Source: a virus. Taken from it: a DNA stretch of 64,000 nt. Shown here one piece after another: positions 879 through 12,041 of this stretch. Position 1 is the stretch's first letter, and each line of letters opens with the position of its first letter. Made by a program: the position numbers and the translations under genes. The stretch lies in IMG/VR virus record IMGVR_UViG_3300045988_103180. One strand, given 5' to 3'. The notes under the pieces are model-generated. The model saw only the letters and a program-made list of their open reading frames with translations, was not told the origin of the DNA and ran no database searches.

Positions 879-1412
879 ATGGGACAAGACATTCATGTTT
901 ATCTTGCTCGCAAGACTAGCGAGTATGCACAGAAGAATGGATGCGAAGAGTATTATCCGGTAGAGTTATTTTCTAAGTATTATAACAATGATGATGATAG
1001 TGTCGTGTATGAATATGCCCAGCCATACAATGGTCGCAATTATGAGCTGTTTTCTTGGCTCATGGATGGCAATGGTCGTGTATATGTAGATGAATCTGCT
1101 TGCCCCGTTGGTCTGTATTTTGACTATGATGGTCTTGTGCCGCAAAAGATTCTTAAAGAATGGGAAGACTGGGAAGAGGGCGGCGCATATGGATATAATG
1201 CTGTTATGCTCTCTGATATTATCAATCATTATAATGCAATTAGTTCTACTAAGTATGCGGTCGATGATATGCTTGGAAGTCATTCCTCTAACAATGAGCT
1301 TAAAGATAGTATCGGTGATTTCATCGAAGACATCAAGCGTTATTGTAGCATTGAAGGAGCATATTATCTAACTCCGCAGGATATTCTTGTTGTCTATTGG
1401 TTTGATAATTAA
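879..1412 (+). CDS. hypothetical early protein
   Basis: ORF 849..1412 trimmed to ATG 879 behind TAAGGAG; internal alternative-frame ORFs rejected. Confidence 0.7.
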   Translation: MGQDIHVYLARKTSEYAQKNGCEEYYPVELFSKYYNNDDDSVVYEYAQPYNGRNYELFSWLMDGNGRVYVDESACPVGLYFDYDGLVPQKILKEWEDWEEGGAYGYNAVMLSDIINHYNAISSTKYAVDDMLGSHSSNNELKDSIGDFIEDIKRYCSIEGAYYLTPQDILVVYWFDN

Positions 1413-1421
1413 AAAAAGTTC

Positions 1422-1451
1422 TTGACAGACTTTATATCAATATGATATAAT
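1422..1451 (+). promoter_or_regulatory. early-class promoter (drives tRNA-Thr/Gln unit)
   Basis: aaaaagttcTTGACA-18-TATAAT. Confidence 0.65.
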
Positions 1452-1585
1452 ATTTTTAGTTACAAAATAAAAGTTCTGGACAAAAAGTTATAATTTTTGT
1501 TGCGCAACTTTTATATTGTAATAGTGGTGTTAGAGCCTGCAAGATTTCTAGAGTATTGCAGGCTCATTTTCTTTTAACATTCTGA

Positions 1586-1658
1586 GCTGCCGTAGCTCAA
1601 CTGGCAGAGCAGCTGATTTGTAATCAGCAGGTTGTAGATTCGATTTCTATCGGCAGCT
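1586..1658 (+). tRNA. tRNA-Thr (UGU)
   Basis: Cloverleaf GCTGCCG/CGGCAGC, D GCTC..GAGC, anticodon loop TTTGTAA, T arm GTAGA-TTCGATT-TCTAT. Confidence 0.85.
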
Positions 1659-1775
1659 CAGAGTGCTAATCTTAGACACTCTCCAAGTGGTAGTAGACCG
1701 AGCTTTGAACTCGCCTGTACTACCCCAAGTCAATTTTAGCGGTTTGGACAGTCGCTATATAAATTTGTCCATTTT

Positions 1776-1848
1776 TGGCTCTTCTTCTAACGGAATAGGA
1801 AAGTGCGCTCTGACCGCATTAATGAAAGTTCGAGTCTTTCAGAGCCAG
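1776..1848 (+). tRNA. tRNA-Gln (CUG)
   Basis: Acceptor TGGCTCT/AGAGCCA (U1-A72), anticodon arm GTGCG-CTCTGAC-CGCAT, T arm GAAAG-TTCGAGT-CTTTC. Confidence 0.75.
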
Positions 1849-1866
1849 CCTAGTTAAAAAAATTAC

Positions 1867-1895
1867 TTGACAAATACCAAGTAATTTTATATAAT
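1867..1895 (+). promoter_or_regulatory. early-class promoter (drives permuted tRNA-like RNA 1)
   Basis: TTGACA-17-TATAATata. Confidence 0.7.
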
Positions 1896-1902
1896 ATAGT
1901 TA

Positions 1903-2370
1903 ACAAATCGTGATGGTGAAGGTTCAGGTTCGACTCCTGCCGCTGTCCGACAAGGACGGCGTAGTTTCAATTGGTGAGAATAGCACCTAGCGATTGTGTT
2001 ATATCCAATGCTTGGGGAGAGGTTATCGCTGCAAGGTAAATGTCTCCCGACTTCTATAATCTTTTGCAGGGATTATAGATTAAAGGGTTGGCGGTTTTCC
2101 CAGTTTGAAACCGTCCACGTGATTATATTATCTTGCTTGCAAGATTTTATATATGCCGGCTCTGTAGCCGTAGACAATGCGGGCCAGCGCATACTTGAAA
2201 AGAAGCGCCTAGGGGAAGAGGAATCTGGTATATTTTGGTAGTTTTCAAACCTCTGCAGATGTGAAAACTACTACTTTAATTGCGGGTGGGAGGTCAGTAT
2301 CTCACGGAGTCTCATAAGCTCTGTTAAGTTTCGGCAGCAGAAACACCTCGCGACCAATTTTTGTTATAAA
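1903..2370 (+). ncRNA. ORF-free structured transcript starting with a circularly permuted, loop-capped tRNA-like module (1906..1995)
   Basis: Begins just after promoter 1867..1895. Order is T arm, acceptor hairpin with GACAA loop, D arm. Followed by a series of 7-11 bp hairpins up to the next promoter. Only ORF present (1996..2241) lacks an SD. Confidence 0.6.
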
Positions 2371-2377
2371 AAATTAT

Positions 2378-2407
2378 TTGACAAATAGTTGAATAATTTG
2401 ATATAAT
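2378..2407 (+). promoter_or_regulatory. early-class promoter
   Basis: TTGACA-18-TATAATata. Confidence 0.65.
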
Positions 2408-2569
2408 ATATCTAGAAGGAAAGGGAAAAAGGATAGTCAACAGTACCGTCAACAAACCAGTGACCCTGCGGCTTATTGCCAACACCCAGAAGTGTAATGC
2501 TTAGTACGCTGTTAGGTTTGACCATTTGTTTTCTTCTAGTGTAGTAAACCAAGAGAAAGGTAAGAAAGT

Positions 2570-2710
2570 ATGGCACAGTCAATCGAGACGATGGAACAGC
2601 GTTATCAGATGCTACTTAACCGCAAAGGTAAGAACTCAGAAAATGTAGGCATCATGCGCAAGCTACGCCGCAAGATTAACAAGGCAAAGCAGGGTGTCAT
2701 TCTTTCCTAA
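2570..2710 (+). CDS. small basic protein (46 aa)
   Basis: Hand-translated MAQSIETMEQ...; preceded by the conserved leader aaccaagagaaagg; below ORF-track cutoff. Confidence 0.5.
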   Translation: MAQSIETMEQRYQMLLNRKGKNSENVGIMRKLRRKINKAKQGVILS

Positions 2711-2725
2711 TTAAGTTTATTTATT

Positions 2726-2821
2726 ATGCGTGATGAGGGTTCAGTTACTTCGTGAAGATTTTATGGGATATTTTAAATGCGGTACGCTGCATTTGTTAGT
2801 CTGACCCCAATTTTTCCGCAT
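2726..2821 (+). ncRNA. R-family structured RNA element, copy R0
   Basis: P1 ATGCG/CGCAT, TGATGAG, P2 GGGTTCAG/CTGACCC, loop starts TTACTTC, 3' tract ATTTTTC. Confidence 0.5.
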
Positions 2822-2829
2822 ATTTTTTC

Positions 2830-2862
2830 TTGACTTCTGGTCTATGTATATTATGATATAAT
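2830..2862 (+). promoter_or_regulatory. early-class promoter (irregular spacing)
   Basis: tttttcTTGACT ... TATAATata; -35/-10 spacing looks too long, so the true -35 is uncertain. Confidence 0.45.
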
Positions 2863-2893
2863 ATACATAGACCAAGAGAGAAAGAGGTTTGTT

Positions 2894-3049
2894 ATGAAGC
2901 AGTTCGTCATTTGTCGTGAAAAGACCTGCGGTATCTATTCAATTCGTGTCAACACTGATTGTTCTACTGTTCGTTTTGAGATAATCAAAGATTTCGACAC
3001 GTTTGAAGATGCAGACAACTACCTTCATAATATTCTTCTATATAAGTAA
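2894..3049 (+). CDS. small protein (51 aa)
   Basis: Hand-translated MKQFVICREK...; leader accaagagagaaagagg plus promoter 2830..2862. Confidence 0.5.
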   Translation: MKQFVICREKTCGIYSIRVNTDCSTVRFEIIKDFDTFEDADNYLHNILLYK

Positions 3050-3059
3050 TTCATTCTAT

Positions 3060-3128
3060 TGGAGTGTAATTCAGTTGGTAGAATGTTGTTAACTCAACGT
3101 GTCGCAGGTTCGAGTCCTGTCACTTCAA
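3060..3128 (+). tRNA. tRNA-like gene with non-canonical anticodon arm (identity undetermined)
   Basis: Normal acceptor, D (ATTC..GAAT) and T (GCAGG-TTCGAGT-CCTGT) arms, but anticodon arm is GTTG-TTAACT-CAAC (4 bp, 6-nt loop); 69 nt. Confidence 0.5.
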
Positions 3129-3157
3129 TAGAACAAAACGTGGCTTATCTACCCTGC

Positions 3158-3229
3158 TGGAGTGTAGCTCAATGGTAGAGCCTGCGGCTGTTAACCGCAT
3201 TGTTGTAGGTTCGAGTCCTACCATTCCAG
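3158..3229 (+). tRNA. tRNA-Asn (GUU)
   Basis: TGGAGTG/CATTCCA, D GCTC..GAGC, TGCGG-CTGTTAA-CCGCA, GTAGG-TTCGAGT-CCTAC. Confidence 0.85.
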
Positions 3230-3280
3230 CAGAGTAGATAGCTACTCAATTTATCCAAAAGTAGAAAAGGAGCTTTGTAA

Positions 3281-3727
3281 ATGTCGTATCCTTATAAGGA
3301 TGAAGTATTGGCAACTAAATATGCTTATATTCCCGATGATGCGGCCAATGCTCCCGCTCGCAAAAAGAAAAAGACAGTGAAGAAAGCCAATCATAAGCAC
3401 GCTTACGATAAGAGTATTGTTATCAATTACTTTGATAAGTACGCTGGCACATGGACTTATGCCTATAGGAATGTTTGTACTATTTGCGGTCGTATCGGTG
3501 ATTTTGTTGATAATGAGGGAATTATCAAAAAGACTTTCCCGCATGTCAAGCCTAGCTGGTTTGGTTTTGCTGTTTCTTTTGGATATAACGATGAATTTGC
3601 TGAATTTACCGAGTGGTCAAAGACTTGGTATCCTCTGATTATTTGGAAAGACTATCAGCCTTTGGATGACAAGTTTATTCCAGACGAGTTTTTTGATATG
3701 CTTGGGATTCAGAAACAAACCAATTAA
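3281..3727 (+). CDS. hypothetical protein
   Basis: 148-aa ORF; AAAAGGAG SD; sits between two tRNA pairs. Confidence 0.7.
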   Translation: MSYPYKDEVLATKYAYIPDDAANAPARKKKKTVKKANHKHAYDKSIVINYFDKYAGTWTYAYRNVCTICGRIGDFVDNEGIIKKTFPHVKPSWFGFAVSFGYNDEFAEFTEWSKTWYPLIIWKDYQPLDDKFIPDEFFDMLGIQKQTN

Positions 3728-3731
3728 AGAT

Positions 3732-3825
3732 GCGCCGGCACTCCGATTGGCCTTGAGAGCGGGGACTCAAAATCCTTTGGCGGTAACCATTCCGCATGTC
3801 GGTCCGAATCCGACCCGGCGTACCA
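3732..3825 (+). tRNA. tRNA-Leu (CAA), type II, CCA encoded
   Basis: GCGCCGG/CCGGCGT, anticodon loop CTCAAAA, long variable arm GCGG..CCGC, GTCGG-TCCGAAT-CCGAC, ACCA. Confidence 0.8.
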
Positions 3826-3827
3826 TT

Positions 3828-3912
3828 GCCGCAGTATTCCTTTAAAGACGAGGGGAAGACTGTAAATCTTCTGTCTATGACTGGCTAGGAGCGTTACCTA
3901 GATGCGGCACCA
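3828..3912 (+). tRNA. tRNA-Tyr (GUA)-like, type II, CCA encoded, atypical T-loop
   Basis: GAAGA-CTGTAAA-TCTTC anticodon arm, 13-nt variable arm; T arm CTAGG-AGCGTTA-CCTAG lacks TTC; 7:66 mismatch. Confidence 0.6.
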
Positions 3913-3923
3913 ATGTTTATTAA

Positions 3924-3993
3924 ATGCGTGATTAAGATTCAGTTACTTCGTATGGGCTTATGTATTGTAACACTGAATCTAACTTTTCCGCAT
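3924..3993 (+). ncRNA. R-family element, copy R1
   Basis: P1 ATGCG/CGCAT, TGATTA, P2 AGATTCAGT/ACTGAATCT, TACTTCG loop start, CTTTTC. Confidence 0.5.
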
Positions 3994-4009
3994 TTATTTG
4001 TTTACCATA

Positions 4010-4113
4010 ATGCGTGATAATAAATCAGTTACTTCATTCTGGAAAAATGCGCTTGCAGGTTCGACTCCTGCTCTGTATCGGTATACATTTTACTGATTTA
4101 GCCTTTTCCGCAT
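4010..4113 (+). ncRNA. R-family element, copy R2 (carries an inserted T-arm GCAGG-TTCGACT-CCTGC)
   Basis: P1 ATGCG/CGCAT, TGATAAT, P2 AAATCAGT/ACTGATTT, TACTTCA, CCTTTTC. Confidence 0.5.
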
Positions 4114-4130
4114 TTACTTTATTAAAGTAG

Positions 4131-4212
4131 GCGATACGTGATAACGTTTCAGATACTTCAAATCTCCATTCTGAGCTGATTACTCAAACTGAAACACCTA
4201 TTTCCGTATCGC
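4131..4212 (+). ncRNA. R-family element, copy R3
   Basis: P1 GCGATACG/CGTATCGC, TGATAAC, P2 GTTTCAG/CTGAAAC, ATACTTCA, CTATTTC. Confidence 0.45.
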
Positions 4213-4223
4213 TTTCTCTTGTG

Positions 4224-4333
4224 CGGCAAGTGATTAGTAAAGAGTTACTTCGTTATATGATATGTTTAAATAAGAGCAACTTTCACTAGAAAGAGGCAAC
4301 CCCACCTATACTCTTTACACTTTTTCCTTACCG
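4224..4333 (+). ncRNA. R-family element, copy R4
   Basis: P1 CGGCAAG/CTTACCG (1 mismatch), TGATTAG, P2 TAAAGAGT/ACTCTTTA, TACTTCG, CTTTTTC. Confidence 0.4.
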
Positions 4334-4387
4334 TTATTTGTAAACCCCTTTCTCGCCTATATAGTGTGCGAGCTATATAGACACAAA

Positions 4388-4464
4388 TGTGCGTGATTAT
4401 TATTCAGTTACTTCATATAGCAATTTTTATGACCATCCAACACTGAATAAACTTTTTCCGCACA
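4388..4464 (+). ncRNA. R-family element, copy R5
   Basis: P1 TGTGCG/CGCACA, TGATTAT, P2 TATTCAGT/ACTGAATA, TACTTCA, CTTTTTC. Confidence 0.5.
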
Positions 4465-4477
4465 CATTGATATTTTA

Positions 4478-4505
4478 TAGGGACTCTTTTGAGTCCCTAT
4501 TTTTT
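4478..4505 (+). terminator. rho-independent terminator
   Basis: TAGGGACTC-TTTT-GAGTCCCTA + T-run. Confidence 0.75.
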
Positions 4506-4506
4506 G

Positions 4507-4536
4507 TTGACTATTGGCTATATATTATGCTATAAT
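4507..4536 (+). promoter_or_regulatory. early-class promoter
   Basis: TTGACT-18-TATAATata. Confidence 0.65.
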
Positions 4537-4563
4537 ATATTTAAGAAATCGAAAGGAGATTCA

Positions 4564-5100
4564 ATGAGCATCTTTGTAGTCAGTGACACTCATTTTTCGC
4601 ATCAGAATATTATCAATTATTGTGAGAAGTCGCGTGCTTTTAATACGGTTGATGACATGAACGAAGACATCATCGAAAGGTGGAATTCCGTTGTATCTCC
4701 TGATGATACTATCTATCATCTTGGTGATTGCTTCATGGGACCGCTTGAGACTGTAGCTAAATATGGTTCTCATCTCAATGGAAAGGTTCATGTGATTCCC
4801 GGCAATCATGATACCAAGAAACGCATTGCTGAAATGGAAAAGCTCGGCTGGATTATTGAAAACAAGGTATCTTGTCTTGATTACAATGATGTCAGTTTCA
4901 TTATGATTCACGAGCGCCCCGAGGAAATGCGTGGAGACAGCGCCAATGTCATTCTATACGGTCATGTTCATGATGCGGCTCCCAAGGGCCTTGTTGATTG
5001 GACATATCATGTAGGTGTTGACACTAATAATCTTACTCCTGTTAATATTCATGACATTTGGCTCGATGTCCAGCAGAAGAAGATTGAGCTTGGAGAGTAA
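4564..5100 (+). CDS. calcineurin-like metallophosphoesterase
   Basis: Motifs SDTHF (DxH), LGDCF (GD), PGNHD (GNHD), YGHVH (GHxH); ORF trimmed to ATG 4564 behind AAAGGAG. Confidence 0.85.
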   Translation: MSIFVVSDTHFSHQNIINYCEKSRAFNTVDDMNEDIIERWNSVVSPDDTIYHLGDCFMGPLETVAKYGSHLNGKVHVIPGNHDTKKRIAEMEKLGWIIENKVSCLDYNDVSFIMIHERPEEMRGDSANVILYGHVHDAAPKGLVDWTYHVGVDTNNLTPVNIHDIWLDVQQKKIELGE

Positions 5101-5101
5101 A

Positions 5102-5296
5102 ATGGAAGTCAAGCATAAGGTCCAGCGTATCTGCGGCAATTGCAGATTTTACAAAAATTGCAGTTGCTATCGCTTTCCTCCAAATGTAATTATTGACCCA
5201 ACAGATTATAATATCTATACAGTACATCCTTCACCGCAAAGTGGAGATAGGTGCGGTGAATGGGCAATTCATCCTAAATTGGAGAAATATGAGTGA
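5102..5296 (+). CDS. small Cys-rich protein (CGNC motif)
   Basis: ORF 5015..5296 trimmed to ATG 5102 next to upstream stop; CGNCRFYKNCSC motif, paralog-like to 5631..5804. Confidence 0.55.
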   Translation: MEVKHKVQRICGNCRFYKNCSCYRFPPNVIIDPTDYNIYTVHPSPQSGDRCGEWAIHPKLEKYE

Positions 5297-5561
5297 AATG
5301 TGTAGTATGCACCTTAATAAAATGACTGCTATGATTCTTGATTTCATTGTGTACCTTAGTCAGCAGAAAGATATTGAGAAGATTGTAGATAAACTTAAAA
5401 AGGTTGACCGTGCTGTTTTCCATGACCTTGTTGTAAATGCTATGGAAAAGAATCCTTCTCATACTAGCACTTATTGTGCTGAGCAGTTATGGAACATGGC
5501 TCCACTTACATCTTTAGCTCTCTTGGATTGGCTTAATAATTTCAACGAATTTTATGCCTAA
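5289..5561 (+). CDS. hypothetical protein
   Basis: ORF 5193..5561 trimmed to ATG 5289 behind GGAGAAAT; overlaps upstream stop. Confidence 0.55.
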   Translation: MSEMCSMHLNKMTAMILDFIVYLSQQKDIEKIVDKLKKVDRAVFHDLVVNAMEKNPSHTSTYCAEQLWNMAPLTSLALLDWLNNFNEFYA

Positions 5562-5568
5562 TTTTTTC

Positions 5569-5598
5569 TTGACTTTTGGTTAAAAGATATGCTATAAT
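5569..5598 (+). promoter_or_regulatory. early-class promoter
   Basis: tttttcTTGACT-18-TATAATata plus conserved leader. Confidence 0.7.
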
Positions 5599-5630
5599 AT
5601 AGTTAAAGAAACCAAGAGAAAGAAGAAATA

Positions 5631-5804
5631 ATGGTTGAAGCGACTAATATATGCGGTAATTGCAAATATTATGAGTCTACAGACCTTTGGTATCTAGGCA
5701 TTTGCCGCAAGCATTTAATTGATGACGAACCTGACAAGGTATGCGTTAATGATTGGATGTGCAATGATGGAGAGTATGACGAAGAGGAATACAATGGAGA
5801 TTAG
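5631..5804 (+). CDS. small Cys-rich protein (CGNC motif, 57 aa)
   Basis: Hand-translated MVEATNICGNCKYYES...; conserved promoter/leader 5569..5630. Confidence 0.5.
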   Translation: MVEATNICGNCKYYESTDLWYLGICRKHLIDDEPDKVCVNDWMCNDGEYDEEEYNGD

Positions 5805-5955: not shown

Positions 5956-6855
5956 ATGAAAGTAGCGGTTATGAATTTTAAGACTTTTGAAGGAAATTCT
6001 GGCGATATATGGAAGTATGTCTTTACGAAAGAAGATATGGTCGCCGAAGCGGTTCTATATAAATATAATAGTTACTACGATAGAACTGTAATTTGTTGCA
6101 GCGTTATGAGTGGTTGTCCTGTTGGATGTCTCTTTTGCGGCACTGGTTCTAAATTTGTTAGGAATCTTACTGCTGATGAAATTGTAGATCAGATTGTAAC
6201 CGTCTTAACTAATAAAGGTTTAATTAATGACATTAATGAAAAGTGTAAAAAATTACAGTTTATGTTTATGAGCATGGGTGAGCCTATGTTAAATTGGGTA
6301 GAAGTTGAAAAAGCAATTGTCAATCTTCATAAAAAGTTTAGTAATGCTCAGTTACTACTTTCGACTATTGGCTGTGATAATGATGAAACTTTTGCAAAGA
6401 TGATTGCTCTATCTAAGAAGATAGATAAAATTGGTTTGCAATTTTCTATTCATAAGTCCAATGACGCAGAGCGGAATGTGTTAATTCCATTCAAGAAGAA
6501 AATGAATCTTCAAAAGATTAGGGATGTTGGAACTGTTTGGTGGAAAGAAACCGGTAGGCATCCATTCTTAAACTACTGCATTGATGGAACGAATAATGAA
6601 GATAAGAACTTTAAAGAACTTACAGACCTGTTTTCTCCTGTAATCTTTAATTTTACTTTTAGTGTAGTTTGCGCATCTGATGAAACTATGAAAGATGCTG
6701 CGTTTAGAAACTTAGATGTTATTAAGAAGTTTCAGGATAAGTTCTTAGAAAAGGGTTATAATGTAAGGACATTTGACCCAGCTGGTCAAGATGATATTGG
6801 TGGTGGGTGCGGCCAGCTTTGGTATGTTCAGAAGTGGCTAAAGTCTCACCAATAG
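5956..6855 (+). CDS. radical SAM RNA methyltransferase, RlmN/Cfr family (N-terminally short)
   Basis: CCSVMSGCPVGCLFC (CX3CX2C plus a Cys 7 residues upstream as in RlmN), MSMGEPMLN, LSTIG, C-terminal DDIGGGCGQL as in RlmN ..DIxAACGQL. Confidence 0.85.
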   Translation: MKVAVMNFKTFEGNSGDIWKYVFTKEDMVAEAVLYKYNSYYDRTVICCSVMSGCPVGCLFCGTGSKFVRNLTADEIVDQIVTVLTNKGLINDINEKCKKLQFMFMSMGEPMLNWVEVEKAIVNLHKKFSNAQLLLSTIGCDNDETFAKMIALSKKIDKIGLQFSIHKSNDAERNVLIPFKKKMNLQKIRDVGTVWWKETGRHPFLNYCIDGTNNEDKNFKELTDLFSPVIFNFTFSVVCASDETMKDAAFRNLDVIKKFQDKFLEKGYNVRTFDPAGQDDIGGGCGQLWYVQKWLKSHQ

Positions 6856-6876
6856 TTTAAAAGCAGTTACAGTAAT

Positions 6877-6948
6877 GCGAAATTCGTACAACGGTTAGGA
6901 CATCCTGCTTATAACGGGAAGACGAAAGTTCAACTCTTTCATTTCGTA
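6877..6948 (+). tRNA. tRNA-Ile (UAU)
   Basis: GCGAAAT/ATTTCGT, TCCTG-CTTATAA-CGGGA, GAAAG-TTCAACT-CTTTC. Confidence 0.75.
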
Positions 6949-6963
6949 CCTCTAACTTTTTTC

Positions 6964-6993
6964 TTGACAATTGCATATTGAATATGATATAAT
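6964..6993 (+). promoter_or_regulatory. early-class promoter (drives permuted tRNA-like RNA 2, tRNA array and radical SAM gene)
   Basis: tttttcTTGACA-18-TATAATata. Confidence 0.7.
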
Positions 6994-6998
6994 ATAGT

Positions 6999-7213
6999 TA
7001 TCAAGTCGAGCATAGAGCAGATGTGGGTTCGACTCCCATCCTTGCCCGACAAGGGCGAGGTAGTTTAATTGGTTAAATACGGTTCTTACGTTCGACTAGA
7101 TATATAGAAAATATAGGAAATAGCTTAACCCTATATTTTCAACTTCTAAAGCCTAGCTAGCTTTAGATTAAAAGGTTCGCAACTATCCTTAAAATGGTTG
7201 CCACTAGTGACGG
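6999..7213 (+). ncRNA. second circularly permuted tRNA-like module (6999..7102) plus two long hairpins, leading the tRNA array
   Basis: Same architecture and same GACAA cap as 1906..1995; closing stem TATC-A-AGTCGA / TCGACT-A-GATA; hairpins 7107..7139 and 7146..7168. Confidence 0.6.
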
Positions 7214-7214
7214 T

Positions 7215-7286
7215 GTGTTAGTAGTTTAACTGGCAGAATTGCAAGGTGACGTTCTTGAGATTGGAGTTCGAATCTCCACTAGCGCA
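7215..7286 (+). tRNA. tRNA-like gene with non-canonical anticodon arm (identity undetermined)
   Basis: GTGTTAG/CTAGCGC, T arm TGGAG-TTCGAAT-CTCCA, but anticodon arm CAAG(G)-TGACGT-(T)CTTG gives a 6- or 8-nt loop. Confidence 0.5.
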
Positions 7287-7293
7287 CGAAAAT

Positions 7294-7365
7294 TTCTCTA
7301 TGGTGTAATTGGCAGCACAACGGATTTTGGTTCCGTTAGTTTATGTTCGAGTCATAATAGAGAAG
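7294..7365 (+). tRNA. tRNA-Gln (UUG)
   Basis: TTCTCTA/TAGAGAA (U1-A72), ACGGA-TTTTGGT-TCCGT, TTATG-TTCGAGT-CATAA. Confidence 0.8.
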
Positions 7366-7372
7366 CCAACAT

Positions 7373-7445
7373 GTCCATGTAGCTCAGTAGGTAGAGCAGC
7401 AGACTGAAAATCTGCGTGTCGGTAGTTCAATTCTACCCGTGGACA
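7373..7445 (+). tRNA. tRNA-Phe (GAA)
   Basis: GTCCATG/CGTGGAC, GCAGA-CTGAAAA-TCTGC, GGTAG-TTCAATT-CTACC. Confidence 0.85.
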
Positions 7446-7453
7446 CCTTATAT

Positions 7454-7526
<73 letters not shown>

Positions 7527-7541
7527 CCTTTAGTTTTCTTT

Positions 7542-7615
7542 GGCAGTGTAGCTTAGATGGTTAGAGCGCACGGCTCATACCCGTGAGGTCATTAGTTCAA
7601 ATCTAATCACTGTCA
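7542..7615 (+). tRNA. tRNA-Met or Ile2 (CAU), elongator type
   Basis: GGCAGTG/CACTGTC (G1-C72), CACGG-CTCATAC-CCGTG, ATTAG-TTCAAAT-CTAAT. Confidence 0.8.
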
Positions 7616-7623
7616 CCTTATAT

Positions 7624-7708
7624 GCGGCTATGGCGGAAGTGGCAGACGCGCTAGCTTTAGGTACTAGTGGGGAAACCCATGCAGGTTCGATTCCTGCTAG
7701 CCGCACCA
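7624..7708 (+). tRNA. tRNA-Leu (UAG), type II, CCA encoded
   Basis: GCGGCTA/TAGCCGC, anticodon loop TTTAGGT, variable arm TGGG-GAAA-CCCA, GCAGG-TTCGATT-CCTGC, ACCA. Confidence 0.75.
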
Positions 7709-7723
7709 AGTATTTTGTTTTGA

Positions 7724-8500
7724 ATGGATGTAATTATGTGTAATTATATTGACCACATTGATGCTGTTATTACTCATTATTGTAATTTTAACTGTCCTTT
7801 TTGTATTGATAAATTTAAAACAAATATTAAGAATCCTCAGAATGAATTTAATAAAGAATATTTTAATGATTTTTTAAATTCTTTAAATAAAAAAGAAAGT
7901 TCTGGCGATATTAAGATTAATTCTAATCGTGAGGTTCTATTTTTGGGTGGTGAACCAACAACTGTTGGTTTTAATTTACTGAAGGATTATGCTAATATTG
8001 TTAGTCGTAATGGTTTTCATCCAATTATATCAACTAATGGTGTTGATAAAAACACAATTAAAAAGATTCTTCCATATTTCGATTGGGTACAGGTAACGGC
8101 TCATAGCAAGAAAGAGATTGATGAATGGCGTACGTATAATACGTATGGGAATATCAATCTTAAAATTGCTGGAGATAGTCATTTTACGTATGATAAGTTA
8201 AATTATTTAATTGATAATTGTAAAGATTTTACTCGTCGTAGCGTATCCATGTATTTTACAAAAGATTTTGTTGAATTATGTAAAGATAAAGAAATTTGGA
8301 ATCTTTTAGATTCTTTAAATAATTGGAAAACCAATGGAAGTTACGAGTATGCTTTTTATAAAGATGTTCGTATTAAGAAATGTATACATGGATTAACAAA
8401 TATTATTGATGAACCCACTGTCCCAAAGATTTATGATAAGAAATATAATAAAACATGGGATAATGAAGAATTAGATGATTATTTAAATCTATTTATATAG
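7724..8500 (+). CDS. radical SAM domain protein, substrate unknown
   Basis: HYCNFNCPFC (CX3CX2C) and LFLGGEPT motifs; very AT-rich; directly follows the tRNA array; start 7724 or 7736. Confidence 0.75.
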   Translation: MDVIMCNYIDHIDAVITHYCNFNCPFCIDKFKTNIKNPQNEFNKEYFNDFLNSLNKKESSGDIKINSNREVLFLGGEPTTVGFNLLKDYANIVSRNGFHPIISTNGVDKNTIKKILPYFDWVQVTAHSKKEIDEWRTYNTYGNINLKIAGDSHFTYDKLNYLIDNCKDFTRRSVSMYFTKDFVELCKDKEIWNLLDSLNNWKTNGSYEYAFYKDVRIKKCIHGLTNIIDEPTVPKIYDKKYNKTWDNEELDDYLNLFI

Positions 8501-8502
8501 TT

Positions 8503-9250
8503 TAAGACAGTATTAAATACAGAATAATGATAACTCGCAGCGCTTCTTTATAGCGAAACTTGACAGAGAGAGGTTTAATACTGTTTATAATGGGGGCATG
8601 GATATAGTCATGATGTAGCTAGATTCTCATGGATGATGACAGCTTAACCAATTCTGGTTCGAGTCCAGGCGTGTCTTAGCTTAGACGGAAAATAAGCAGC
8701 CATGTGTTTATGATTATGTTATTTTGCAAAAGACATGTAGTGTAATTGGCAACACGCCCTACTTTCGGAGTAGATAACCAGCGGGGAGCTGGGTTTGCCT
8801 GCTAAGCAAAACGTGCTTATTATAAGCATTCGGGTCGGAACCGAATTACTCCGCCATATAATACCTGCCCCTATTGGCAGTGGTTTTTAAGATTTTCCCG
8901 AAAAAAATCTTTTGCGGTAGAATAGGCAACGCCGCACAGCTATTCGAGAGGATAGCGAGCCTTCTCGCTAGGAGATAAGCGAGTGCTTTCACGGAGTAAT
9001 TGGTGAGCTGAAACACCGTAAAAACAGACCCTCTGGATGCGCCGTGAATACGCATCCTGCTTTGGCTAATCAACTGGTCCAGCGACTAGGCCCGCCTAGA
9101 AAGCGGTGCGTTCCCAAGAGGGAATGGAGGGCAGCACTTCGGTTAGCCGCCATAAGGAAGCAGAACCGGACCAGTGTTCGGACTCGCCTCGAAAGCGATG
9201 TGTCCCGCGAGGGATGGGTAGCGTCAACTCCTGCTTCTGCCATATATTAC
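8503..9250 (+). ncRNA. large GC-rich structured non-coding region (unclassified)
   Basis: About 750 nt with no credible CDS between radical-SAM stop and terminator 9252..9289. Many GC helices, GNRA-type loops, duplicated two-hairpin module. Contains tRNA-like pieces. Confidence 0.55.
8767..8856 (+). tRNA. tRNA-Ser (GCU)-like element embedded in a larger structured RNA, CCA encoded
   Basis: GGAGTAG/TTACTCC+G+CCA, TTTGC-CTGCTAA-GCAAA, 6-7 bp variable arm; atypical D arm (CCAGC-GGGGA-GCTGG) and T-loop GTCGGAA. Confidence 0.45.
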
Positions 9251-9251
9251 G

Positions 9252-9289
9252 TAGGGTAACTTCTTTTATAGAAGTTACCCTATTTTTTT
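9252..9289 (+). terminator. rho-independent terminator closing the tRNA/radical-SAM/large-RNA unit
   Basis: TAGGGTAACTTC-TTTTATA-GAAGTTACCCTA + T7. Confidence 0.8.
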
Positions 9290-9290
9290 A

Positions 9291-9320
9291 TTGACATACA
9301 GCAATTCAAAATGATATAAT
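9291..9320 (+). promoter_or_regulatory. early-class promoter
   Basis: TTGACA-18-TATAATata plus leader. Confidence 0.7.
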
Positions 9321-9354
9321 ATATTTAAAGAAAAGCCAAGAGAAAGGTTATCTC

Positions 9355-9708
9355 ATGAGCAACACCGATGATATGCTTTATGAACAGTGTAAGTGTATTT
9401 CAGAAGAACTTGATGAACTTGTAGACAAATATAATAATTCTGATGACTGCGATGAATTCATAGAATATTTTGACGATAACTATGGAATTGACTATATATG
9501 GCGTATGGGTGTAGGCCTTATCGGTGTGCGCGTTCTTGTTGCTTTTGGTGGCCCCAATATCTATATTGATACTTTTGATGGCGTTGTCCGTGGCTACTGG
9601 GGCAGCACGCAGTCCTATCCTTTGCATTATAATGTAGTTGATACTCTCAATGACTATTTTGAGGATTGCGCGGCAGAAAATATTTATTTTGATAGTCATC
9701 GTAATTAA
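9355..9708 (+). CDS. hypothetical acidic protein
   Basis: 117-aa ORF behind promoter 9291..9320 and conserved leader. Confidence 0.7.
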   Translation: MSNTDDMLYEQCKCISEELDELVDKYNNSDDCDEFIEYFDDNYGIDYIWRMGVGLIGVRVLVAFGGPNIYIDTFDGVVRGYWGSTQSYPLHYNVVDTLNDYFEDCAAENIYFDSHRN

Positions 9709-9712
9709 TATC

Positions 9713-9741
9713 TTGATTATTGGCTTTATATCTAGTATAAT
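9713..9741 (+). promoter_or_regulatory. early-class promoter
   Basis: TTGATT-17-TATAATata plus leader. Confidence 0.65.
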
Positions 9742-9775
9742 ATATTTAAAGAAAGCTAAGAGAAAGAAATATAAG

Positions 9776-10150
9776 ATGCCTACTTTCATTTGTACTGTGT
9801 GTCAAAATAGAATTAAAGAACATGGCAGCAATGTCGATTGTGGATATTATAACGATACTCGTCAGATGATTGAAGACACGACAAAGTTATATGATAAAAG
9901 TTTTCTTTGTCCGCATTTTTGTCACGTTAGGTATCACAATATAGGTGTATGTAAATCAAAGAAAAAATACGCTAACAGATATGATGCGTTATGTGCGGCT
10001 AAGATGATATTCGTCAATAGCTCAAAAACCTTGCGTCCATATAAGTGCAAGATGTGCAAGTTTTGGCATTTAACGCATCAGTATAATAGCAATTATAATC
10101 CAGAAAAAGAGTACGATAAAGCTAGAAAAGCAAACCGCTTGTATGATTAG
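9776..10150 (+). CDS. Cys/His-rich zinc-finger-like protein
   Basis: ORF trimmed to ATG 9776 behind leader agctaagagaaag; CxxC pairs and YKCKMCKFWHLTH. Confidence 0.65.
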   Translation: MPTFICTVCQNRIKEHGSNVDCGYYNDTRQMIEDTTKLYDKSFLCPHFCHVRYHNIGVCKSKKKYANRYDALCAAKMIFVNSSKTLRPYKCKMCKFWHLTHQYNSNYNPEKEYDKARKANRLYD

Positions 10151-10159
10151 GAGATAAAT

Positions 10160-10639
10160 ATGGCTAATCTTTATATTCTTGCAGGTATCCCAGGCTGCGG
10201 CAAGTCGTTTTGGGCGCATGAGCATAGCGCTGAACTTGATGCCAAGATTGTTTCGCGTGATTATATCCGCTTTGAGTATATGGCAAATGACCCTGATTTT
10301 CTTCCTTCTATGGATTACTTTAAGTATGAGAGTGACGTTATTAAGGATTTCTATAGTCAGATTAACGACAATCTTTGCAATGATATTAATGTTATTGCAG
10401 ATGCTACTCATATCTCTTGGAAGTCGCTTCGCAAGACCGTTGAGAATTGCGGCAAGAACGCCGATAAGATTATTCTTGTATACTTCAATCGTGGCCTTGA
10501 CATTGCTTTACCGCAGAATGCTAAGCGCGGAGATGTTGAACATGTACCCGAGGATGTTATCAAGCGCATGTGGGCTGGTCGTTATATGCCTGCTCGCGCT
10601 AAAGCCAAGGGTCTTGTAGGCGAGTATATGATTGTATAG
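10160..10639 (+). CDS. P-loop polynucleotide 5'-kinase-like protein (T4 Pnk kinase-domain type)
   Basis: GIPGCGKSFWA Walker A, SRDYIR, ADATH, QNAKRGDVEHVPEDVIKRMW parallel the T4 Pnk kinase domain (recalled from memory). Confidence 0.75.
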   Translation: MANLYILAGIPGCGKSFWAHEHSAELDAKIVSRDYIRFEYMANDPDFLPSMDYFKYESDVIKDFYSQINDNLCNDINVIADATHISWKSLRKTVENCGKNADKIILVYFNRGLDIALPQNAKRGDVEHVPEDVIKRMWAGRYMPARAKAKGLVGEYMIV

Positions 10640-10645
10640 GTGAAT

Positions 10646-10861
10646 ATGAAAAAAGATACCGTATATGTTTTTAAGCAGATTTTAGATGCTATCCAAGAGC
10701 AAGAAATATCTAGTTCATCTATTGGTTTTGAATATTGCGTATATGAAATGCCGCAAAAAGAATGCGAAGATATATGTATAATCTTGCAGAAACTTGGGTA
10801 TAATGCAATTATAGGACATAGACTCGGAAGTGAGTCTACAATTACAGTGATGAAAGAGTAG
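10646..10861 (+). CDS. hypothetical protein
   Basis: ORF trimmed to ATG 10646 behind AGGTG. Confidence 0.55.
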   Translation: MKKDTVYVFKQILDAIQEQEISSSSIGFEYCVYEMPQKECEDICIILQKLGYNAIIGHRLGSESTITVMKE

Positions 10862-12009: not shown

Positions 12010-12041
12010 ATATTTAAGAAATGAAGCAGAAAGGATTTTAT

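What the first reader, a model, noticed from the sequence alone, without database searches (positions are those of the whole stretch)
1400..10700. RNA-centred accessory island: tRNAs, tRNA mimics, other structured RNAs and RNA-modifying/end-processing enzymes clustered together
About 9 kb contains the following:
- 11 canonical and 3 atypical tRNA genes;
- two clear and one possible circularly permuted, loop-capped tRNA-like modules;
- six copies of an unrelated structured RNA family;
- a ~750-nt GC-rich ORF-free RNA region;
- an RlmN/Cfr-family radical-SAM methyltransferase and a second radical-SAM protein;
- a metallophosphoesterase and a T4-Pnk-like kinase.

Most of these are transcribed from the same stereotyped early promoters, and several RNAs and enzymes share single promoter-to-terminator units (for example 6964 to 9289).

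Inference: this could be one functional system that maintains or reprograms the translation apparatus. It might counter host defences that cleave or deplete tRNA/rRNA. As a combination I do not recognise it as a described system.
Basis: partly seen in the sequence, partly recalled or inferred. Interest (0 to 1): 0.8.

Follow-up and report, generated by a model that had tools for sequence, protein, structure and literature searches.

The report
Phage tRNA and Y-RNA island
This early region of a ~140-kb human-gut phage is a changeable cluster of ordinary and odd-shaped tRNA genes, a previously uncatalogued family of phage Y RNAs (tRNA-mimicking RNAs that partner the Ro60 protein in related phages) and RNA end-repair and modification enzymes, most likely there to keep translation running during infection.

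Summary
Every listed element is present at 1400-10700, but two were misread.

- **The "unrelated" six-copy RNA is a Y RNA family.** It is real: 110 copies in related phages, with strong covariation. In three other groups of phages (two with closer Ro60s, one GC-rich and distant) its members abut a Ro60 (TROVE) gene. The long forms carry the same permuted tRNA mimic as the two stand-alone YrlA-like RNAs.
- **The "~750-nt GC-rich RNA" is not one RNA.** It is an array of swappable cassettes. These include an irregular tRNA-Ser(GCU) and two (8/4) tRNA-Ser of the published allo-tRNA type.
- **The enzymes are confirmed.** They are a short RlmN/Cfr-like methylase (82% identical to a bacterial chromosomal gene), a phosphoesterase and a polynucleotide-kinase-family kinase. 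Relatives carry a T4 Rnl1-type RNA ligase just off the window's 5' end.
- **Co-inheritance is partial.** Y RNAs, irregular tRNAs, phosphoesterase and kinase are kept. RlmN is truncated or absent in about a third of relatives. The second radical-SAM gene is in one of 19 RlmN-anchored relatives.

Verdict: a mosaic tRNA-supply, Y-RNA and RNA-repair island. This is a known concept with a new Y RNA family, and no Ro60 was found in about 75 kb examined.

The parts
1422..1451 (+). stereotyped sigma-70-type promoter (12/12 consensus, TG-extended)
1586..1659 (+). tRNA-Thr(UGU)
1672..1763 (+). irregular tRNA-Gln(UUG)-like element; the 7-bp outer stem and UUG loop are kept, with compensatory changes in L044
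   Evidence: ARAGORN at 80% threshold; sequence comparison
1776..1850 (+). tRNA-Gln(CUG)
1867..1895 (+). stereotyped promoter driving Yl1
1897..1996 (+). Yl1: YrlA-like permuted tRNA mimic (T arm, loop-capped acceptor stem, D arm) closed by a terminal stem; paralogue of Yl2; carries the GUGAU motif after its closing stem
1997..2372 (+). X1: conserved ORF-free transcript tail of unknown nature (z = -2.2); contains a hairpin with the conserved loop AUACUUGAAAAGAA
2378..2407 (+). stereotyped promoter
2570..2710 (+). 46-aa very basic protein under strong purifying selection, always directly upstream of Y RNA copy c1
2720..2832 (+). Y RNA family R1, copy c1
2830..2857 (+). promoter (10/12)
3060..3128 (+). 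irregular tRNA (Rfam 44 bits; odd anticodon loop)
3158..3230 (+). tRNA-Asn(GUU)
3732..3825 (+). tRNA-Leu(CAA), class II
   Evidence: weak tRNA-Sec hit
3826..3912 (+). U1: irregular tRNA-Tyr(GUA)-like with T loop AGCGUUA and encoded CCA; all five anticodon-stem pairs covary
3918..4002 (+). Y RNA family R1, copy c2
4004..4124 (+). Y RNA family R1, copy c3 (retains a tRNA T arm in its apical domain)
4128..4218 (+). Y RNA family R1, copy c4
4220..4342 (+). Y RNA family R1, copy c5
4383..4474 (+). Y RNA family R1, copy c6
4477..4500 (+). intrinsic terminator-like hairpin followed by a T run
4507..4536 (+). promoter (11/12)
4564..5100 (+). calcineurin-like metallophosphoesterase (candidate 3'-end healing enzyme)
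5569..5598 (+). promoter (11/12)
5956..6855 (+). short RlmN/Cfr-family radical-SAM RNA methylase lacking the N-terminal domain; close to a bacterial chromosomal gene; variable among relatives
6877..6950 (+). tRNA-Ile(UAU)
6964..6993 (+). stereotyped promoter driving Yl2 and the long RNA operon
6996..7108 (+). Yl2: YrlA-like tRNA mimic
7107..7214 (+). X2: ORF-free spacer of unknown nature; co-varies in presence with Yl2
7215..7708 (+). six tandem tRNAs: one with an 8-nt anticodon loop (7215-7287), then Gln(UUG), Phe(GAA), Lys(CUU), Met(CAU) and Leu(UAG)
7724..8500 (+). second radical-SAM protein (GC 26%, phage rSAM family of unknown function); sporadic cargo, probably not part of the island's core
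8498..8595 (+). cassette A: about 95-nt hairpin RNA with a covarying 11-bp outer stem
8596..8766 (+). cassette B: window-specific permuted tRNA-like module (T arm 8653-8669, acceptor with 54-nt insert, D arm); the slot holds a canonical tRNA-Ser(GCU) or nothing in relatives
8767..8856 (+). U2: irregular 7/5 tRNA-Ser(GCU) with encoded CCA; covariation in all five helices
8863..9062 (+). cassettes D/E1: multi-hairpin RNA of unknown kind (in relatives a 125-nt version is closed by a 9-bp stem followed by GCCA)
9064..9152 (+). U3: (8/4) tRNA-Ser(AGA), allo-tRNA type
9156..9242 (+). U4: (8/4) tRNA-Ser(CGA), allo-tRNA type
9251..9283 (+). intrinsic terminator-like hairpin (14 bp) followed by a T run
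9291..9320 (+). stereotyped promoter
9713..9741 (+). promoter (10/12) ahead of the kinase operon
10160..10639 (+). P-loop kinase of the polynucleotide-kinase/PSTK clade (candidate 5'-end healing enzyme)

Best explanation
The region is the core of an early-transcribed, cassette-like 'translation support' island of a ~140-kb long-tailed human-gut phage. It has four layers.

1. **tRNA supply.** It holds about 10 canonical and at least 7 irregular tRNAs. These include two (8/4) tRNA-Ser, an irregular tRNA-Ser(GCU) and a tRNA-Tyr(GUA). They add to or replace host tRNAs.
2. **Y RNAs.** Six paralogues of a phage-specific family (R1) share a conserved rod: P1, GUGAU, P2, UUACUUC ... UUUUCC, P1'. There are also two or three YrlA-type tRNA mimics. 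In sister phages these RNAs flank a Ro60 gene and an Rnl1 ligase. Here they most likely act in trans, either as Ro60-type scaffolds or as uncleavable tRNA look-alikes that occupy tRNA-directed nucleases.
3. **End healing.** A phosphoesterase and a polynucleotide-kinase-family kinase, together with the Rnl1 ligase that relatives encode just upstream, could reseal cleaved tRNAs as in T4.
4. **Optional cargo.** This comprises a short RlmN/Cfr-like methylase closely related to a bacterial chromosomal gene, and a sporadic radical-SAM gene.

**Shown:** the sequence families, the structures with covariation, the gene contexts, and the presence/absence pattern.

**Inferred:** transcription and processing, Ro60 binding, decoy or repair activity, and any link to host defences.
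For: **R1 is a real RNA family linked to Ro60.**
- It has 110 instances and strong covariation. Its invariant motifs are GUGAU, AGUUACUUC and UUUUCC.
- Long forms carry a complete tRNA-like insert and score as sub-threshold YrlA.
- R1 copies sit 2-270 nt upstream of TROVE genes in L141 and L142, about 750 nt upstream in L143, and on both sides in L144. All are on the same strand. In L014 an Rnl1 ligase follows the Ro60 gene.
- Phages whose Ro60 is only 22-24% identical still keep GAGUUACUUC...CUUUUUC just upstream of the gene.

**The other RNAs are supported.**
- Yl2 matches the YrlA architecture.
- The irregular tRNAs show compensated cloverleaves. The (8/4) pair is 100% paired, with 18 of 30 pairs doubly changed.

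**The enzymes fit RNA repair and modification.**
- The kinase matches the PHROG 'polynucleotide kinase' family (E 2.7e-17), and the phosphoesterase matches PHROG 547.
- An Rnl1 ligase lies about 3.2 kb upstream of the window's start in about 25 relatives.
- The RlmN-like protein keeps the cluster motif and both catalytic cysteines.

**The layout is conserved.** Promoters are dense and stereotyped. Synteny holds in a relative with only 57-77% protein identity (L044).

**Published ideas agree.** YrlA has been proposed as a competitive inhibitor of an anticodon nuclease (PMC7790460). Phage tRNAs plus RNA repair have been described as a counter-defence (PMC7824862, PMC10264068, PMC11464382, PMC11555353).
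Against: - **No Ro60 found in this clade.** A profile built from seven phage Ro60s finds nothing in the 64-kb window or in any locus of this clade (Pfam). The presumed partner is missing from about 75 kb examined.
- **R1 does not meet YrlA criteria.** It scores below Rfam's YrlA gathering score and lacks an exact GNCGAAN0-1G motif.
- **No expression data exist.**
- **The ligase is off-window.** It is inferred for this genome from relatives.
- **The healing enzymes are not in one operon.** Kinase and phosphoesterase are about 5 kb apart in different promoter units. The kinase's best solved-structure match is PSTK, not a PNK.
- **Much of the island is dispensable.** Several members are variable or decaying among close relatives.
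- **Codon supply is an alternative reading.** The tRNA anticodons are biased towards G/C-ending codons that are commoner in the phage than in the 25%-GC bacterium carrying the closest RlmN homologue. This fits plain codon supply without any defence.
Confidence: 0.6

Rival explanations
1. Pure codon-usage compensation. The tRNAs, including the irregular ones, exist only to decode codons the phage uses more than its AT-rich host. The tRNA-like and R1 RNAs are decaying tRNA relics or by-products of cassette shuffling. The enzymes are unrelated neighbours.
For: - Many island tRNAs read codons that are far commoner in the phage than in the 25%-GC bacterial contigs carrying the closest RlmN homologue. 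Examples per 1000 codons: CAG 19 vs 1.9, AAG 38 vs 14, TCG 3.2 vs 0.8, CTG 4.9 vs 1.0, TCT 26 vs 15.
- tRNA content turns over quickly between relatives.
- RlmN and the second radical-SAM gene are dispensable.
Against: - The host assignment is unproven, and a phage 14 GC points above its host would be unusual.
- tRNA-Ile(UAU) and Gln(UUG) do not fit the pattern.
- R1 and the Yl RNAs are not decaying. They show compensated stems and invariant motifs across clades whose linked Ro60 proteins are only 22-50% identical. Yl1 and Yl2 have their own consensus promoters. R1 members are linked to Ro60 genes elsewhere.
- Kinase, phosphoesterase and Rnl1 are conserved throughout the clade.
Confidence: 0.2
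2. The R1 elements are cis-acting processing or termination signals. They would be punctuation for RNase P, RNase Z or RNase III, or transcript stabilisers, in polycistronic tRNA transcripts. They would not be trans-acting Y RNAs.
For: - They sit at the 3' ends of transcription units or between genes, always on the transcribed strand.
- They end in a U-rich stretch.
- Five lie in tandem after tRNA genes and before a terminator.
Against: - A true terminator follows the array.
- The conserved single-stranded motifs (GUGAU, UUACUUC, UUUUCC) and the variable apical domains look like a protein-binding scaffold, not a cleavage site.
- Long forms carry a whole tRNA mimic and score as YrlA.
- Members immediately flank Ro60 genes in three independent phage groups.
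Confidence: 0.1
3. One reading: all RNAs and all four enzymes form one obligate, co-inherited system that reprograms or protects the translation apparatus.
For: - The RNA theme is shared, the promoters are shared, and the elements lie close together.
- Relatives carry further RNA enzymes just upstream.
Against: - The second radical-SAM gene is in 1 of 19 RlmN-anchored relatives.
- RlmN is truncated in four relatives and absent in at least four.
- Yl2/X2 are present in about half of the relatives.
- Cassettes B, C and E are variable.
- Homologues of RlmN and of the second radical-SAM protein occur elsewhere without tRNAs or Y RNAs.
Confidence: 0.1

Closest known systems
Bacterial and phage Y RNAs YrlA/YrlB with Ro60 (Rsr): the rsr-yrlBA-rtcBA operon and mycobacteriophage YrlA (Chen et al. 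2014, PMC4201824; Rfam RF02553)
   Same: - The RNA is closed by a terminal stem, with a T arm, a loop-capped acceptor stem and a D arm.
- It has a YUAY element (UUAC in R1).
- Long (YrlA-like) and short (YrlB-like) forms lie side by side.
- Related phages encode the RNAs next to Ro60 on the same strand and next to an RNA ligase.
   Different: - Scores are 26-40 bits against a gathering score of 69.
- The 5' motif is GCGUGAU rather than GNCGAAN0-1G.
- The additional motifs UUACUUC and UUUUCC are invariant.
- There are 6 + 2-3 copies per genome instead of 1-2.
- This clade shows no Ro60 in about 75 kb examined.
- The family occurs in human-gut phages, not mycobacteriophages.
(8/4) tRNA-Ser / allo-tRNAs and 'polycistrons of irregular tRNAs' (Mukai et al. 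2017, PMC5389517)
   Same: - U3 and U4 have an 8-bp acceptor stem and a 4-bp T stem.
- They have a 6-bp D stem with a tetraloop and a long variable arm.
- The discriminator is G73 and the anticodons are for serine.
- The type is already reported in bacteriophages and rumen Clostridia.
- They occur in a polycistron together with irregular 7/5 tRNAs.
   Different: - Here they are in a human-gut phage, next to Y RNAs.
- CCA is encoded.
- Neither charging nor decoding was tested.
Phage T4 tRNA region with polynucleotide kinase and RNA ligase 1, which repair PrrC-cleaved tRNA-Lys (cited in PMC7790460, PMC7824862)
   Same: - A tRNA gene cluster sits together with small stable RNAs of unknown role.
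- There is a PNK-family kinase and an Rnl1-type ligase (in relatives).
- The region is predicted to be expressed early, from promoter consensus matches only.
   Different: - The kinase is a stand-alone P-loop domain.
- The 3' end-healing candidate is a separate calcineurin-like phosphoesterase, not a fused HAD phosphatase.
- The genes are dispersed over about 15 kb.
- No cognate host nuclease is known.
tRNA provisioning and RNA-repair gene sets of jumbo phages, including rare ROT/TROVE proteins with a tRNA-like partner (Iyer et al. 2021, PMC7824862)
   Same: The same combination of ideas applies: many tRNAs, RNA ligases, polynucleotide kinases, calcineurin-like phosphoesterases, and Ro60 with a tRNA-like RNA.
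   Different: - This is a ~140-kb phage, not a jumbo phage.
- The RNA partners, not the proteins, are the expanded component.
Phage tRNAs that evade or neutralise tRNA-targeting defences (PMC10264068, PMC11464382, PMC11555353)
   Same: - The phage encodes its own tRNA variants, including a tRNA-Tyr.
- The hypervariable but compensated anticodon stem of U1 is what escape from a stem-loop-reading nuclease would look like.
   Different: - No defence system or cleavage has been identified here.
- The variation is in the stem rather than the loop.

Membership tests
YrlA / bacterial Y RNA (RF02553; Chen et al. 2014) | tRNA-like domain: T arm, loop-closed acceptor stem and D arm inside a closing stem | tested here: met
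   - Yl2 gives a full-length alignment to the YrlA model, and RNAalifold predicts the same four-way structure.
- Yl1 is a paralogue of Yl2.
- Long R1 forms in L020/L044, L051, L014 and L143 carry the module.
YrlA / bacterial Y RNA (RF02553; Chen et al. 2014) | Reaches Rfam's gathering score (69 bits) | tested here: not met
   Yl2 scores 32.4 bits. The best relative scores 40.1 bits. The short R1 copies in the window give no hit.
YrlA / bacterial Y RNA (RF02553; Chen et al. 2014) | GNCGAAN0-1G motif near the 5' end (putative Ro60 contact) | tested here: inconclusive
   Yl2 has GUCGAGC. R1 has the invariant GCGUGAU. The Ro60-linked RNAs of L145-147 have GCGAGAAG. These are similar but not exact matches.
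YrlA / bacterial Y RNA (RF02553; Chen et al. 2014) | Conserved YUAY at the start of the variable loop | tested here: met
   UUAC within AGUUACUUC is invariant in R1.
YrlA / bacterial Y RNA (RF02553; Chen et al. 2014) | Encoded within about 4 kb of a Ro60 (TROVE) gene on the same strand | tested here: not met
   - In the window and its clade there is no TROVE hit in any ORF of 250 aa or more. A 7-sequence Ro60 profile finds nothing at E <= 10.
- The feature is met for R1 members of other phage groups: L141-L144 (TROVE 44 and 59 bits) and L145-147.
YrlA / bacterial Y RNA (RF02553; Chen et al. 2014) | Physically bound by Ro60 | not testable with these tools
   Needs immunoprecipitation or a gel-shift assay.
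(8/4) tRNA-Ser / allo-tRNA (Mukai et al. 2017) | 12-bp acceptor branch split as an 8-bp acceptor stem plus a 4-bp T stem | tested here: met
   The minimum-energy folds of U3 and U4 show it. All 8 + 4 pairs are 100% paired across three paralogue types, and 10 of the 12 are doubly changed.
(8/4) tRNA-Ser / allo-tRNA (Mukai et al. 2017) | Long variable arm, long D stem with tetraloop, G73/U73 discriminator | tested here: met
   The V arm is 5-6 bp. The D stem is 6 bp with loop CAGC or CAGU. The discriminator is G (U in the L067-type copy), followed by CCA.
(8/4) tRNA-Ser / allo-tRNA (Mukai et al. 2017) | Serine anticodon (for the tRNA-Ser subgroup) | tested here: met
   The anticodon loops are CUAGAAA (AGA) and CUCGAAA (CGA).
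(8/4) tRNA-Ser / allo-tRNA (Mukai et al. 2017) | Charged by SerRS and used in translation | not testable with these tools
   Needs aminoacylation and reporter assays.
RlmN/Cfr radical-SAM RNA methylases | CX3CX2C cluster plus the two mechanistic cysteines (E. coli C118 and C355) | tested here: met
   The alignment to RlmN 6fz6 shows ...ICCSVMSGCPVGCLFCGTG... and ...GGGCGQL.
RlmN/Cfr radical-SAM RNA methylases | Passes the NCBIfam equivalog cut-off and has the full-length architecture with the N-terminal domain | tested here: not met
   It scores 109 bits against the TIGR00048 cut-off of 290. The match covers model positions 81-342 only. The protein is 299 aa against about 350-380.
T4-type tRNA repair (Pnk + Rnl1) | Polynucleotide 5'-kinase | tested here: inconclusive
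   It matches AAA_33 and the PHROG 'polynucleotide kinase' family at 2.7e-17. However, the best solved relatives are PSTK (1e-8), then Pnkp1 (0.009). It also scores below the NCBIfam Pnkp cut-off.
T4-type tRNA repair (Pnk + Rnl1) | 3'-phosphatase fused to the kinase (HAD domain) | tested here: not met
   The kinase is a 159-aa single domain. A separate calcineurin-like phosphoesterase lies 5 kb away.
T4-type tRNA repair (Pnk + Rnl1) | Rnl1-family RNA ligase | tested here: inconclusive
   There is none in the window. About 25 loci of relatives have one (RNA_lig_T4_1, E 1.8e-41) about 3.2 kb upstream of the window's first genes. It is inferred, not seen, for this genome.
GOLLD / ROOL large phage-associated RNAs | Match to the Rfam models; a single large conserved RNA | tested here: not met
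   There is no hit at E <= 10 on 8480-9300. The region is a set of independent cassettes.

The most novel reading that the evidence does not exclude
This phage clade has lost (or never had) Ro60 yet has expanded its Y RNAs to eight or nine genes. The reading is that these RNAs work without a phage Ro60. They would act as uncleavable tRNA/Y-RNA decoys that titrate host tRNA-directed nucleases or hijack a host Ro60/PNPase machine. The conserved GUGAU/UUACUUC/UUUUCC rod would be a new protein-binding module shared by Ro60-linked RNAs of very distant phages.
Probability: 0.25. Interest if true: 0.8.

Novelty: new variant of a known kind. Interest (0 to 1): 0.6.

Why it matters
**Y RNA function is still unclear.**
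- Bacterial Y RNAs are known from few systems.
- This work adds an abundant, easily recognised Y RNA family in human-gut phages that Rfam's YrlA model misses.
- The family has long (tRNA-mimic) and short forms, and a strongly conserved motif that is a candidate Ro60 contact.

**It offers a natural comparison.**
- Sister phages encode Y RNA, Ro60 and an Rnl1 ligase side by side.
- This clade keeps a multiplied Y RNA set with no Ro60 in sight.
- That makes two published ideas directly testable: that Y RNAs scaffold RNA repair or decay, and that their tRNA-like domain is a nuclease decoy.

**It corrects how such regions should be read.**
- 'Mystery' GC-rich ORF-free stretches in phage tRNA islands can be arrays of irregular tRNAs, including the (8/4) type, that standard tRNA finders skip.

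Tried and rejected
- **GOLLD/ROOL or another catalogued large RNA for 8500-9290.** There is no Rfam hit even at E 10, and the region is modular.
- **Other RNA classes for R1.** I considered a C/D-box or kink-turn motif, a self-cleaving ribozyme and type III antitoxin repeats. The motifs do not fit by eye and there are no Rfam hits.
- **R1 in bacterial genomes.** A pattern scan of 185,579 species genomes gave 8 hits. That is about the number expected by chance, and none was confirmed by the model. The family looks phage-restricted.
- **Ro60 in this phage.** Pfam on all large ORFs, tblastn and a custom profile were all negative. A collection scan with the Ro60 alignment used only two peptide patterns, so its negative result for this clade is weak.
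- **The YrlA hit at 3083-3211.** It is an artefact of two tandem tRNAs sharing an acceptor sequence.
- **The kinase as a PSTK acting on the tRNA-Sec-like (8/4) tRNAs.** The idea is attractive, but the match covers only the generic P-loop domain and the tRNA-binding C-terminal domain is absent. I did not adopt it.
- **The second radical-SAM protein as a tRNA modifier or viperin.** There are only weak sub-threshold hits. Its homologues are phage proteins of unknown function.
- **Small ORFs.** They have no Pfam hits.
- **Cluster look-up for organism names.** It returned none.
- **Folding energies of X1 and D/E1.** The z-scores are only about -2, so these remain unexplained.
- **Two reviews I wanted were not held**.

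Full report
**What the sequence is**

The window has no close relative among deposited phage genomes. It does belong to a clade of 135-147-kb contigs from human-gut metagenomes. A 2847-aa tape-measure protein marks it as a long-tailed phage.

The finding's region is unusually dense in near-perfect promoters. They have an A/T-rich upstream stretch, TTGAC(A/T), a spacer of about 18 nt and (TG)nTATAATATA. They lie at 1422, 1867, 2378, 2830, 4507, 5569, 6964, 9291 and 9713. Strong terminator-like hairpins lie at 4477-4500 and 9251-9283. No transcript data exist.

**tRNAs**

- ARAGORN finds 11 tRNAs and Rfam adds one at 3060-3128.
- Relaxing ARAGORN to 80% of its threshold adds a Gln(UUG)-like element (1672-1763), a Tyr(GUA) tRNA (3831-3912) and a Ser(GCU) tRNA (8767-8856).
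- The Tyr-like gene (U1, 3826-3912) has an atypical T loop (AGCGUUA) and an encoded CCA. Across 12 distinct alleles from relatives it is 99% paired in a cloverleaf. All five anticodon-stem pairs are doubly substituted while almost everything else is invariant.

**The '~750-nt GC-rich RNA' is not one RNA**

BLAST against 19 related loci splits 8498-9300 into blocks that are present or absent independently.

- Block A (8498-8595) is in nearly all relatives.
- Block B (8596-8766) is unique to the window. In relatives that slot holds a canonical tRNA-Ser(GCU), nothing, or a tRNA-Ser interrupted by an ORF.
- Blocks C, D, E and F vary.

Three of the blocks are irregular tRNAs.

- U2 (8767-8856) folds as a five-armed class II tRNA-Ser(GCU). 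It shows compensatory changes in all five helices (99% paired, 12 of 27 pairs doubly changed).
- U3 (9064-9152, anticodon AGA) and U4 (9156-9242, anticodon CGA) fold with an 8-bp acceptor stem, a 4-bp T stem, a 6-bp D stem with a tetraloop and a long variable arm. Each has discriminator G and CCA.
- Across three paralogue types this (8/4) cloverleaf is 100% paired, with 18 of 30 pairs doubly changed.
- A model built from U3 and U4 finds them throughout the clade and nowhere else in the fetched DNA.

This is the (8/4) tRNA-Ser/allo-tRNA type of Mukai et al. They reported it in bacteriophages and rumen Clostridia and also described polycistrons of irregular tRNAs (PMC5389517).

Blocks A and D/E1 have covarying hairpins but remain unidentified. 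No GOLLD, ROOL or other Rfam family matches.

**Permuted tRNA-like modules are YrlA-type Y RNAs**

- The element at 6996-7108 aligns end to end with Rfam's YrlA model. It scores 32 bits, below the gathering score of 69.
- RNAalifold on seven alleles independently returns the same layout: an outer stem, an inner stem, a T arm, a loop-capped acceptor stem with compensatory changes, and a D arm.
- The element at 1897-1996 is its paralogue. Both begin right after a consensus promoter.
- This is the architecture Chen et al. described for bacterial and mycobacteriophage Y RNAs (PMC4201824).

**The six-copy family (R1) is real**

The six window copies share this layout:

- P1 (6 bp)
- G-UGAU-N-A
- P2 (9 bp, ending in AG)
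- UUACUUC
- a variable domain of 30-110 nt
- P2'
- UUUUCC
- P1'

A covariance model built from them finds 110 instances (85 distinct) in related phage contigs. In those, 94% of cells are paired and 11 of 15 pairs are doubly changed. The covariation score is 0.53, against 0.14 for shuffles and about 0.07 for slid registers. Beyond chance the motif is absent from 185,579 bacterial and archaeal species genomes.

**R1 belongs with the tRNA mimics and with Ro60**

Four observations link R1 to the tRNA mimics and to Ro60.

1. In more distant phages the variable domain is a complete permuted tRNA-like module, and those copies score as sub-threshold YrlA at 26-40 bits. Window copy c3 keeps only the T arm.
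2. In four contigs from two other phage clades, R1 copies lie on the same strand as a TROVE-domain (Ro60) gene. One long and one short copy lie upstream: 2-270 nt away in L141 and L142, and about 750 nt away in L143. L144 has copies on both sides (TROVE 44 and 59 bits against a cut-off of 23). In L014 a T4 Rnl1-type RNA ligase follows the Ro60 gene.
3. In GC-rich phages whose Ro60 is only 22-24% identical, the RNA just upstream of Ro60 still contains GAGUUACUUC and CUUUUUC within a P1/P2 rod.
4. UUAC matches the conserved YUAY element of YrlA.

R1 is therefore a phage Y RNA family. Its long forms are YrlA-like and its short forms YrlB-like, and Rfam does not capture it. The rod is the likely Ro60-binding module. 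That last point is inference.

**Ro60 is missing here**

- No ORF of 250 aa or more in the window has a TROVE hit.
- A profile built from seven phage Ro60s finds nothing at E <= 10 in any six-frame ORF of the window. It also finds nothing in any locus of this clade. Together these loci span from about 11 kb upstream of the window start to about 10 kb beyond the RlmN-like gene (about window coordinate 16,900).
- The remaining ~65 kb of the genome, and the host, could not be examined.

**Enzymes**

- **4564-5100** is a calcineurin-like phosphoesterase (Pfam; PHROG 547 at E 1.6e-39).
- **10160-10639** is a single-domain P-loop kinase. It matches AAA_33 and the PHROG 'polynucleotide kinase' family (2.7e-17). 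Its best solved relatives are PSTK (1e-8) and Pnkp1 (0.009).
- **5956-6855** is a short RlmN/Cfr-family enzyme.
  - It keeps the CX3CX2C motif and both mechanistic cysteines.
  - It lacks the N-terminal domain and scores far below the equivalog cut-offs.
  - It is 82% identical to a gene that sits among housekeeping genes on 25%-GC bacterial contigs from gut metagenomes. That closeness suggests transfer between phage and bacterium; the direction was not tested.
- **7724-8500** is a 26%-GC radical-SAM protein of a phage family with no known role.
- **Off the window's 5' end**, relatives encode an Rnl1 RNA ligase (E 1.8e-41). They also encode a SpoU RNA methylase, a cytidine-deaminase-fold protein, PhoH, a Band_7 protein and a second kinase. 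The RNA-centred region is thus about 20 kb.

**Co-inheritance**

| Behaviour among relatives | Elements |
|---|---|
| Kept across the close clade and in a relative with only 57-77% protein identity (L044) | The R1 array, U1, phosphoesterase and the small ORFs |
| Kept across the close clade; not covered by the short L044 locus | A Yl1-type RNA, kinase, Rnl1 |
| Truncated in four relatives, absent in at least four | RlmN-like gene |
| Present in 1 of 19 RlmN-anchored relatives | Second radical-SAM gene |
| Present in about half of the relatives | Yl2 and X2 |
| Differ between near-identical genomes | tRNA sets and cassettes B, C and E |

Distant RlmN homologues in phage contigs have no tRNAs nearby. 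The island is a conserved scaffold with fast-turning cargo, not one obligate system.

**Mechanism**

The best reading combines three functions.

- **tRNA supply.**
- **Y RNAs.** They would act as Ro60-type scaffolds or as uncleavable tRNA look-alikes. The idea that YrlA could be a competitive inhibitor of an anticodon nuclease is published (PMC7790460).
- **Repair.** The kinase, phosphoesterase and Rnl1 would heal and seal cleaved tRNA.

This matches the general framework already described for large phages (PMC7824862) and work showing that phage tRNAs defeat tRNA-targeting defences.

A serious partial rival is plain codon compensation. Several island tRNAs read G/C-ending codons that are much commoner in the phage than in the AT-rich bacterium carrying the closest RlmN homologue. 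That bacterium is not proven to be the host.

**Verdict**

The concept is known. The new items are the phage Y RNA family, its multiplication, and its apparent separation from Ro60 in this clade.

Noticed in passing
3826-3912 (anticodon stem 3858-3862 / 3870-3874): The tRNA-Tyr(GUA)-like gene has five different, fully compensated anticodon-stem alleles among close relatives that are otherwise almost identical in this gene. The pattern looks like diversifying selection on the anticodon stem.
   Followed up: partly
2408-2710: A 46-aa, very basic protein (2570-2710) with a conserved 160-nt leader lies directly upstream of Y RNA copy c1 in every relative. It is 91% identical in L044, where neighbouring proteins are 57-77% identical, with 11 synonymous against 4 non-synonymous changes. 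It has no Pfam hit. It could be an RNA-binding partner.
   Followed up: partly
L001:1614-8697 (relatives; just upstream of window position 1): Off the window's 5' end, relatives carry a second AAA_33/KTI12-like kinase, a Band_7/SPFH protein, a SpoU RNA methylase, PhoH, a cytidine-deaminase-fold protein and an Rnl1 RNA ligase.
   Followed up: partly
L072:4660-5075; L044:200-930; L014:3117-3884; L051:9103-9744: Endonuclease-type ORFs are inserted in or next to tRNA genes in related islands. One interrupts the tRNA-Ser(GCU) gene in L072. Others carry HNH or PD-(D/E)XK domains.
   Followed up: no
3060-3230: Two tandem tRNAs share the acceptor sequence TGGAGTG. [quoted passage not shown]
   Followed up: yes
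1738-1775: A candidate H-type pseudoknot (AGCGG ... GGACA ... UCGCU ... UGUCC) lies just upstream of tRNA-Gln(CUG). L044 shows a compensatory change (GGGCA/UGCCC).
   Followed up: no
2188-2215 and L044:1925-1955: A hairpin with the conserved loop AUACUUGAAARGAA and a covarying stem occurs in X1. The loop resembles the R1 motif UACUUC.
   Followed up: no
7724-8500: The second radical-SAM gene has 26% GC against 39% for the window and is present in only one relative. That suggests recent acquisition. A homologue lies in a 420-kb contig full of small unknown ORFs.
   Followed up: partly
L086-L089: Bacterial contigs carrying the 82%-identical short RlmN-like gene are only 24-26% GC. They encode Cas9-like, SpoIIM and EsaA-type proteins. 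This looks like an AT-rich gut Firmicute that may or may not be the host.
   Followed up: partly
53937-62480; 12021-12974: There is a 2847-aa tape-measure protein (PhageMin_Tail) and a RuvB-like AAA+ protein. Most structural-region ORFs have no Pfam match.
   Followed up: no
L147:2381-2449: A confident Rfam 'Transposase-2 RNA' hit (75 bits) lies near the Ro60 locus of a GC-rich phage contig.
   Followed up: no
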